Below, one piece after another: positions 57,080 through 57,162 of a stretch of 64,000 nucleotides of DNA (within the stretch, counting starts at the first letter, position 1; each line of letters starts with the position of its first letter). A program made the position numbers and the translations under genes. The notes below the pieces were generated by a model, which saw only the letters and a program-made list of their open reading frames with translations, was not told the origin of the DNA and did no database searches. The DNA is from an uncultured Clostridia bacterium (GTDB lineage Bacteria > Bacillota > Clostridia > TANB77 > CAG-508). The stretch is taken from the NCBI GenBank assembly GCA_934121905.1, contig CAKOVI010000001.1:303700-367699 (forward strand), in the 5' to 3' direction.

Positions 57080-57162
57080 ATTTCGGATTGGGGACAGTTC
57101 TTTTTCTGATTGGGGACGGTTCTTTTCGCGAAAAGAACCGTCCCCAATACAAAATCCGAAAA
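57080..57162. repeat. Composite palindrome TTTCGGATTGGGGACAGTTCTTTTT CTGATTGGGGACGGTTCTTTTCGCGAAAAGAACCGTCCCCAATACAAAATCCGAAA inside the pheS-pheT spacer
   Basis: Perfect inverted repeat with an outer TTCGGATT/AATCCGAA layer and T/A tracts on both sides. Located within an obligately co-expressed operon. Confidence 0.85.

What the first reader, a model, noticed from the sequence alone, without database searches (positions are those of the whole stretch)
57080..57162. Strong palindromic repeat elements sit inside obligately co-transcribed operons (pheS-pheT, rimP-nusA, infB-rbfA-nrnA, mraY-spoVE)
A perfect hairpin of about 40 bp with flanking U-tracts lies between pheS and pheT. Similar elements lie between rimP and nusA (42948-43003), infB and rbfA (47471-47525), and rbfA and nrnA (47936-48024). 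If these were efficient intrinsic terminators the downstream essential genes would be cut off from their promoters. They are therefore more likely RNA-stability or processing elements, partial (regulated) terminators, or sites bound by an antiterminator. The elements in the nusA-infB operon are notable because NusA itself modulates hairpin-dependent termination.
Basis: partly seen in the sequence, partly recalled or inferred. Interest (0 to 1): 0.6.

Follow-up and report, generated by a model that had tools for sequence, protein, structure and literature searches.

The report
REP-like transposase-linked hairpin repeats in operons
The hairpins between pheS-pheT, rimP-nusA, infB-rbfA-nrnA and mraY-spoVE are copies of one short mobile repeat, a REP-like element tied to a RAYT-type tyrosine transposase, that has colonised the gene spacers of this gut Clostridium lineage; they are not terminators or dedicated RNA regulators.

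Summary
The hairpins are real and far above chance, but they are not operon-specific signals. All belong to one repeat family. Its unit is a variable 4-10 bp stem closing a conserved 19-nt loop, AAAAAGAACCG(G)TCCC(C)AAT. A covariance model finds 22 units in 13 intergenic spacers at 34952-63871 and none in 1-34900. Units occur singly, as direct pairs (rimP-nusA, infB-rbfA) or as inverted pairs forming 18-39 bp stems (pheS-pheT, rbfA-nrnA, mraY-spoVE). None has a sense-strand U-tract.

In other Clostridia the same unit flanks a 260-aa Y1/HUH transposase that passes NCBI's REP-associated tyrosine transposase model, with an inverted unit upstream and a direct unit after the stop codon. In 80 loci chosen by that protein alone, 29 of 40 unit hits lie in those two oriented positions (2.6 expected).

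Relatives show insertion polymorphism. pheS and pheT overlap (TAATG) in three species, have a 57-nt spacer without a unit or a 56-nt spacer with one decayed unit in two others, and 106 nt with three units here.

Verdict: a new Clostridial member of the REP/REPIN-RAYT (TIRtron-type) kind. The units are transcribed through, and RNA effects are plausible but secondary. No transposase gene lies in this window.

The parts
57081..57162 (.). pheS-pheT spacer element: three units (cores at 57090-57102 -, 57112-57124 -, 57133-57145 +). The inner pair forms the 40-nt perfect palindrome 57112-57151, and an outer 9-bp stem closes the whole element.
   Evidence: The spacer is absent or shorter in relatives.
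55905..56008 (.). Three-unit cluster (31-bp stem) in the pheS 5' UTR, between the T-box leader and the pheS Shine-Dalgarno sequence.
   Evidence: It is absent from all five relatives.
42945..43010 (+). rimP-nusA spacer: two direct units in sense orientation. The second is a clean hairpin, GGCAC-loop-GTGCC.
   Evidence: The orthologous spacer in UMGS1576 has two units with the same core but different, complementary arms.
47465..47525 (-). infB-rbfA spacer: two direct units in antisense orientation.
   Evidence: Conserved in UMGS1576.
47934..48024 (.). rbfA-nrnA spacer: inverted pair of units (REPIN-like) with a 31-bp perfect stem.
   Evidence: UMGS1576 has a single unit of another subtype at this position.
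49010..49050 (-). nrnA-truB spacer: one decayed unit (core 49025-49037, 3 mismatches).
   Evidence: UMGS1576 has four units at this position.
62548..62642 (.). mraY-spoVE/ftsW spacer: inverted pair of units with a 39-bp stem.
63802..63871 (.). Two units downstream of spoVE. The first is a 10-bp-stem hairpin.
59906..59964 (.). Inverted pair of abutting units in the region upstream of murE. It is not the pheST terminator.
37660..37727 (+). pyrG-downstream spacer: two direct units in sense orientation.
35823..35882 (.). Inverted pair of abutting units between the divergent genes deoD and pyrG.
34952..35032 (.). Inverted pair of units (33-bp stem) filling the gap between the convergent genes yunB and deoD.
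53772..53830 (-). Two decayed units upstream of the small ORF that precedes spoIIM.
   Evidence: E = 0.72; weak.
55618..55864 (+). T-box leader of pheS. This is context, not part of the repeat.
   Evidence: 80.5 bits, E = 3.6e-16, full-length match, below the gathering score of 93.
59573..59617 (+). Canonical hairpin plus U-tract after pheT. It is the likely true terminator of pheST and is context only.
   Evidence: Read directly from the sequence.

Best explanation
The hairpins are copies of a REP-like miniature repeat. Its unit is a short hairpin with a lineage-variable stem and a conserved 19-nt loop. Inverted doublets of units correspond to REPINs. The family belongs to a Clostridial RAYT/TIRYT-type Y1 (HUH) tyrosine transposase.

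Shown here:
- The unit structure, with covarying stems.
- The intergenic, multi-copy distribution as singles, direct pairs and inverted pairs.
- The unit flanks RAYT genes in a fixed arrangement in many Clostridia.
- Copies come and go at orthologous spacers between related species.

Inferred:
- The transposase, acting in trans on folded single-stranded DNA, cleaves and rejoins at the units and so spreads them into spacers.
- The conserved loop is the recognition or cleavage determinant, and the stem only has to pair.
- In operons the units are simply co-transcribed. Lacking a U-tract, they let RNA polymerase through.
- Their hairpins may secondarily block 3' exonucleases or change translation of neighbouring genes. 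At pheS-pheT an ancestral TAATG overlap has been replaced by a spacer with its own Shine-Dalgarno sequence.
For: 1. One family, far above chance: 25 core matches against 0.42 expected, and 22 covariance-model hits, all intergenic.

2. Hairpin with a conserved loop.
- Mean arm complementarity is 4.47 bp against 2.00 +/- 0.13 with shuffled partners.
- On 150 sequences chosen by loop only, 60.5% of cells pair against 39.6 +/- 1.3 in shuffles.
- The covariation score is 0.482 against 0.187, with slid controls at 0.18-0.22.

3. Link to the transposase.
- L069 ORF 6357-7139 is a Y1_Tnp protein.
- It scores 89.4 bits against the cut-off of 80 for NCBIfam NF047646, REP-associated tyrosine transposase.
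- Units flank it: inverted upstream, direct downstream.
- The same arrangement holds in L047, in L119/L120 (Proteiniborus), in L123/L124 and in L125/L126.

4. Independent test on 80 metagenome loci picked by protein alone.
- 29 of 40 model hits fall in the two oriented 170-nt windows next to the gene, against 2.6 expected (P about 3e-26).
- 21 loci are positive.
- The two units flanking one gene share their arms. The arms differ between genes, and the loop core is constant.

5. Mobility.
- The pheS-pheT spacer is -1, 57, 56 and 106 nt across relatives, with 0, 0, 1 decayed and 3 units.
- The 5' UTR cluster is absent from all five relatives.
- No unit was found in 45 kb of those relatives.
- nrnA-truB has 1 decayed unit here and 4 in UMGS1576.
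- rbfA-nrnA has 2 units here and 1 there.

6. Both orientations occur relative to transcription.

7. The family is named and described in the literature. RAYT/REPtron and TIRYT/TIRtron are described in PMC6006769 and PMC3733652. Group 1 RAYTs are reported in Clostridia in PMC5581495.
Against: - No RAYT gene lies in the 64-kb window (tblastn) or in about 60 kb of UMGS1576/UMGS1925 loci. Whether this lineage still encodes the transposase is unknown.
- The units lack the GTAG or CGTC tag that defines classical REPs. Their conserved part is in the loop, not in the stem or at its foot.
- The core matches the published TIR motif GGGGWSAS at only 7 of 8 positions.
- Three spacers carry units in both this genome and UMGS1576 (about 87% nt identity) with a 100% conserved core. 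This could also reflect host-level selection.
- No transposition or cleavage has been shown for this family.
- The complete absence of units from 1-34900, which has about 17 spacers of 68 nt or more, is unexplained.
Confidence: 0.8

Rival explanations
1. The units are primarily cis-acting RNA elements. A hairpin with a protein-binding loop would have been selected to set mRNA stability, processing or differential expression within operons.
For: - The loop is strongly conserved and the stems covary.
- The core is 100% conserved in orthologous spacers at about 87% genome identity.
- The units lie 2-16 nt after stop codons and just upstream of Shine-Dalgarno sequences.
- E. coli REPs have such effects (my own knowledge).
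Against: - The asymmetric loop occurs in both orientations relative to transcription, even within one operon: sense in rimP-nusA and antisense in infB-rbfA.
- The units also lie between convergent and divergent genes.
- They flank a transposase gene in a fixed geometry.
- Species of similar relatedness lack them entirely at the same genes.
- No Rfam family matches.
Confidence: 0.1
2. The units are intrinsic or regulated (partial) terminators, possibly modulated by NusA.
For: The hairpins are very stable (-24 to -78 kcal/mol). Two of them score as terminator-like, but on the minus strand only.
Against: - No sense-strand U-tract follows any intra-operon element.
- Essential downstream genes start 10-28 nt after the elements, leaving no room for a promoter.
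- rimP-nusA does not fold better than shuffles.
- A canonical hairpin plus U-tract exists separately after pheT.
- The same units occur in non-terminator contexts.
Confidence: 0.03
3. The units are a host DNA-level signal unrelated to transposition, for example an uptake sequence or a binding site for a nucleoid or topology protein.
For: Density is about 0.75 per kb in 35-64 kb. The 17-19-nt core is invariant across several families of Clostridia. E. coli BIMEs bind gyrase and IHF (my own knowledge).
Against: - The units are exclusively intergenic, whereas uptake sequences also occur inside genes.
- They need complementary arms.
- They are tightly and directionally linked to RAYT genes.
- Their distribution is patchy: none in 1-34900, and none in close relatives.
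Confidence: 0.05

Closest known systems
REP/REPIN (BIME) elements and their RAYT transposases (REPtrons) of Proteobacteria
   Same: - Short hairpin-forming extragenic repeats in high copy.
- Present as singles, inverted doublets and clusters.
- Found inside operons directly after stop codons.
- A Y1/HUH transposase gene is flanked by inverted copies.
- Copy content differs between related species.
   Different: - There is no GTAG or CGTC tag at the foot of the hairpin.
- The conserved sequence is the 19-nt loop, and the stems vary and covary.
- The transposase is longer (about 260 aa), with a weak C-terminal helix-turn-helix.
- The hosts are Clostridia.
TIRtrons / TIRYT (Di Nocera et al. 2013, PMC3733652), which probably correspond to TnpA_Y1 subclass 2.1 (Quentin et al. 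2018, PMC6006769) and RAYT Group 1 (Bertels et al. 2017, PMC5581495)
   Same: - RAYT-like genes flanked by inverted repeats that are not GTAG REPs.
- A G-rich motif: GGGGWSAS in the literature, GGGGACGG here.
- Some TIRs are self-complementary, repeated in the genome, and arranged as dimers or clusters.
- The proteins are long and have a C-terminal HTH.
- Group 1 is reported to occur in Clostridia.
   Different: - Published TIR families are described as moderately abundant, and no Firmicute example is named.
- Quentin et al. found no REP-like structures for subclass 2.1.
- Here the unit is a clear hairpin and reaches about one unit per 1.3 kb.
- Assignment of this protein to subclass 2.1 or Group 1 was not tested against reference sequences.
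IS200/IS605 ends and their miniature derivatives
   Same: A Y1 HUH transposase that recognises folded single-stranded hairpins. No terminal duplications are evident.
   Different: - The gene scores as a RAYT (89 bits), not as an IS200 transposase (30 bits against a cut-off of 55).
- The units far outnumber any gene copy.
- The left and right ends are the same unit in inverted orientation.

Membership tests
REP/REPIN-RAYT system | Short (20-40 nt) hairpin-forming repeat present in many copies | tested here: met
   The unit is about 31-39 nt. There are 22 model hits in the window. Stem support is given.
REP/REPIN-RAYT system | Extragenic location, as singles, inverted doublets (REPIN/BIME) and clusters | tested here: met
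   All hits lie in 13 intergenic spacers. Seven are inverted doublets, and there are also direct pairs and triplets.
REP/REPIN-RAYT system | The repeats flank a RAYT gene in inverted orientation (REPtron) | tested here: met
   Met in other genomes: L069, L047, L119/L120, L123/L124 and L125/L126. It also holds in 21 of 80 loci chosen by protein alone (P about 3e-26).
REP/REPIN-RAYT system | A cognate RAYT gene in the same genome | not testable with these tools
   There is no RAYT in the 64-kb window, and the rest of the genome is not available.
REP/REPIN-RAYT system | Conserved GTAG (or CGTC) tetranucleotide at the foot of the hairpin | tested here: not met
   The arms and their flanks vary. 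The conserved part is the loop, AAAAAGAACCGTCCCCAAT.
REP/REPIN-RAYT system | Evidence of gain or loss at orthologous sites | tested here: met
   pheS-pheT, the pheS 5' UTR, nrnA-truB and rbfA-nrnA all differ between relatives.
REP/REPIN-RAYT system | Cleavage and rejoining of the repeat by the transposase | not testable with these tools
   This needs biochemistry.
TIRtron/TIRYT | A RAYT-like gene flanked by non-GTAG inverted repeats that carry GGGGWSAS | tested here: inconclusive
   Inverted flanking units are shown. The core GGGGACGG matches the motif at 7 of 8 positions.
TIRtron/TIRYT | A long protein with a C-terminal HTH (subclass 2.1) | tested here: inconclusive
   The proteins are about 260 aa. 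The HTH hits at residues 225-260 are all below Pfam thresholds. No reference subclass sequences were compared.
Intrinsic terminator | A G+C-rich hairpin followed at once by a U-tract on the transcribed strand | tested here: not met
   and the sequences.
Described RNA family (Rfam 15) | A match to a curated covariance model | tested here: not met
   Only tRNA-Met reaches the gathering score. In the E-value scan the repeats match only generic miRNA-precursor hairpin models.
CRISPR array | Regularly spaced direct repeats with unique spacers | tested here: not met
   There are at most three units per site, in mixed orientations, dispersed over 13 spacers.

The most novel reading that the evidence does not exclude
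The family may represent a distinct recognition mode for RAYT-type HUH enzymes. The invariant 19-nt sequence would be presented as the single-stranded loop of a hairpin whose stem is free to vary, as at the origins of rolling-circle replicons, rather than as a tag at the foot of the hairpin. In gut Clostridia the units may also have been co-opted as host elements that shape expression of essential operons: they sit next to stop codons and Shine-Dalgarno sequences, and they replaced pheS-pheT translational coupling. That would explain why the core is perfectly conserved in orthologous spacers of species about 13% diverged.
Probability: 0.2. Interest if true: 0.6.

Novelty: new member of a known kind. 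Interest (0 to 1): 0.35.

Why it matters
- **Reach of the system.** REP/REPIN-RAYT systems have been studied almost only in Proteobacteria. Here a clear hairpin repeat family tied to a RAYT-type gene is spread across Clostridia, and in one uncultured gut lineage it occupies about half of the spacers in a 29-kb stretch, including spacers inside essential operons.
- **A gap in the literature.** The long RAYT class was reported to lack REP-like structures. This family offers a candidate substrate for it.
- **A natural experiment.** Related species have the same operons with and without the repeat, so its effect on operon expression can be compared directly.
- **Practical use.** It explains many spurious 'terminator' or 'structured RNA' calls in these genomes, and probably contig breaks in their assemblies. 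The 39-nt covariance model can mask the repeats.

Tried and rejected
- **Rfam.** Gathering and E-value scans found no family for the repeats.
- **Literature by sequence.** A full-text search for the core sequence gave only unrelated eukaryotic primer hits.
- **Literature by topic.** Searching RAYT/REPIN together with Firmicutes or Clostridia found no description of this family. It found only general classifications.
- **Terminator reading.** Rejected because there is no U-tract.
- **Orientation-specific RNA motif.** Rejected because sense and antisense copies are about equally frequent.
- **Common gene neighbourhood.** Flanking genes of single-copy loci in other Clostridia are unrelated housekeeping genes. 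The RAYT in L069 turned up during this check.
- **RAYT in this lineage.** tblastn found none in the window or in the fetched UMGS1576/UMGS1925 loci. The metagenome scan gave one human-gut contig (L195, 30% identity) with no unit next to the gene.
- **Whole-collection distribution.** No copy numbers per genome could be derived.
- **Sedimentibacter RAYT (L121).** It is flanked by a different palindrome, so the unit is not universal in the protein family.

Full report
**Observation**

The window has 28.8% G+C and comes from a spore-forming Firmicute. NCBIfam confirms the gene names:
- pheS 56028-57077
- pheT 57184-59556
- rimP 42479-42937
- nusA 43024-44160
- rnpM
- infB 44468-47467
- rbfA 47553-47918
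- nrnA 48041-48991
- truB
- murE
- mraY 61562-62542
- spoVE/ftsW 62667-63795

At 57081-57162 there is a composite element. It contains a perfect 40-nt palindrome (57112-57151; 18-bp stem), a third unit and an outer 9-bp stem. The RNA fold is -40.8 kcal/mol (z = -6.1).

The sequence 3' of the hairpin on the sense strand is A-rich, not U-rich. The terminator scan flags none of the intra-operon elements on the + strand. A canonical hairpin plus U-tract sits separately after pheT at 59573-59617.

**One repeat family**

The core AAGA[AC]CCG[GT][TC]CCC occurs 25 times at up to 2 mismatches, against 0.42 expected. Reading the copies shows the unit: a variable arm, the conserved loop AAAAAGAACCG(G)TCCC(C)AAT, and a complementary arm. 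Units occur in several arrangements:
- Direct pairs: rimP-nusA, infB-rbfA and downstream of pyrG.
- Inverted pairs forming long stems: rbfA-nrnA (31 bp), mraY-spoVE (39 bp) and yunB/deoD (33 bp).
- Abutting inverted pairs: pheS-pheT, 35823-35882 and 59906-59964.
- Triplets: the pheS-pheT spacer and the pheS 5' UTR.

rimP-nusA does not fold better than shuffles (z = -0.45), so the 'strong palindrome' description fails there.

A covariance model (R1) run with filters off finds 22 hits with E < 0.2. All lie in intergenic spacers between 34952 and 63871, and none lies in 1-34900.

**The stem is real**

- With partners shuffled, mean arm complementarity drops from 4.47 to 2.00 +/- 0.13 bp.
- On 150 sequences selected by the loop only, chance hits included, 60.5% of cells pair against 39.6 +/- 1.3 in shuffles.
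- The covariation score is 0.482 against 0.187, and slid controls give 0.18-0.22.

**Distribution**

A scan of species-representative genomes with the loop pattern returned many chance singletons. It also returned multi-copy loci in low-G+C uncultured gut 'Clostridium sp.' genomes (UMGS1576, UMGS1925, UMGS1516 and Hadza MAGs).

The same loop inside hairpins with other stems appears in Lachnospiraceae, Oscillospiraceae, Sporanaerobacter, Vallitaleaceae, Tepidanaerobacteraceae, Syntrophomonas and Butyrivibrio. The flanking genes there are unrelated housekeeping genes. Single units lie in either orientation relative to transcription.

**Link to a transposase**

In Sporanaerobacter (L069) a 260-aa ORF lies between two inverted units. 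It is a Y1_Tnp protein. It scores 89.4 bits, above the cut-off of 80, for NCBIfam NF047646, REP-associated tyrosine transposase.

The geometry is an inverted unit 30-120 nt upstream and a direct unit right after the stop codon. It recurs in L047, in Proteiniborus (L119/L120), in L123/L124 and, with doubled units, in L125/L126. The protein family has 944 members in the database, some named RayT by their sources.

As an independent test, 80 metagenome loci were chosen by the protein alone.
- Of 40 model hits, 29 fall in the two oriented 170-nt windows, against 2.6 expected (P about 3e-26).
- 21 loci are positive.
- The two units around one gene share their arms. The arms differ between genes, and the loop core GAACCGTCCC is constant.

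**Mobility**

UMGS1576 contig USCB01000036 is syntenic with 42357-53765 at about 87% identity.
- It carries units in the same three spacers, with an identical core but different, complementary arms.
- rbfA-nrnA has one unit there and two here.
- nrnA-truB has four units there and one decayed unit here.

Five other relatives (76-84% nt identity in pheST) show no unit in 45 kb. The pheS-pheT junction varies with them:

| Relative | PheS identity | Junction |
|---|---|---|
| L129, L130, L131 | 86-87% | TAATG overlap, no spacer |
| L128 | 92% | 57-nt spacer, no unit |
| L127 | 95% | 56-nt spacer, one decayed unit |
| This window | - | 106-nt spacer, three units |

The three-unit cluster between the T-box leader (55618-55864) and pheS is absent from all five relatives.

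**Interpretation**

These features match REP/REPIN elements and their RAYT transposases. More precisely, they match the TIRtron/TIRYT variant: RAYT-like genes flanked by non-GTAG inverted repeats with a GGGGWSAS motif, some of them repeated in the genome (PMC3733652).
- This variant is probably TnpA_Y1 subclass 2.1, whose proteins are long, carry a C-terminal HTH and were reported to have no REP-like structures (PMC6006769).
- The proteins here have Y1_Tnp at residues 12-123 and sub-threshold HTH hits at 225-260.

What remains inference:
- The transposase moves the units.
- The loop is the recognition or cleavage determinant.
- The units affect RNA decay or translation of neighbouring genes.

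In operons the units must be read through. Only 10-28 nt, holding the Shine-Dalgarno sequence, separate them from the next start codon.

**Limits**

- No RAYT gene is in the window.
- The GTAG tag is absent.
- The subclass assignment is untested.
- No literature on this family in Firmicutes was found.
- The repeat-free first 35 kb is unexplained.

**Verdict**

This is a real and striking repeat of a known kind: a new Clostridial member of the REP/RAYT (TIRtron-type) systems. It is not a set of operon-specific terminators or antiterminator sites.

Noticed in passing
window 55618-55864 (+): A full-length T-box leader lies upstream of pheS. It scores 80.5 bits (E = 3.6e-16), below Rfam's gathering score of 93. 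The three-unit repeat cluster is inserted between its terminator and the pheS ribosome-binding site.
   Followed up: partly
window 62667-63795 (+), break near 63405-63443: spoVE/ftsW is split into two overlapping ORFs in different frames. The profile is covered at positions 1-232 by the first ORF and 234-354 by the second. This is a frameshift, from either a sequencing error or a pseudogene.
   Followed up: partly
window 1-34900: No repeat unit occurs here, although there are about 17 spacers of 68 nt or more, against 22 units in 34952-63871. The stretch holds many ORFs with no NCBIfam match, but also core genes (envC-like, ctp protease). The reason for the contrast is unknown.
   Followed up: partly
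window 16744-17724 (+): Rpn-family recombination-promoting nuclease / putative transposase (TIGR01784, E = 1e-32).
   Followed up: no
window 57077/57184, compared with L129-L131 at 5050-5053: pheS and pheT overlap as TAATG in three related species, which implies translational coupling. Here they are separated by 106 nt, and pheT has its own Shine-Dalgarno sequence (AAAGAAAGGAAG). L128 has a 57-nt spacer with a small unrelated hairpin and no unit.
   Followed up: yes
window 59573-59617 and 59630-59803 (-): A canonical hairpin plus U-tract terminator follows pheT. On the opposite strand lies a small ORF (57 aa from its internal ATG) with no family match. The 109-aa ORF call that runs into the repeat at 59906-59964 is probably an artefact.
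   Followed up: partly
L058 1192-1621 (Actinomycetota MAG, 66% G+C): The same 17-nt loop occurs in tandem 39-nt repeats with arms GTGAACG/CGATTCA, in a high-G+C actinobacterial contig. The unit may therefore extend beyond Clostridia.
   Followed up: no
P0121: A 473-aa PheS homologue (88% identity over 88% of the query) is about 120 aa longer than normal. It may be a gene call that reads into a neighbouring region.
   Followed up: no
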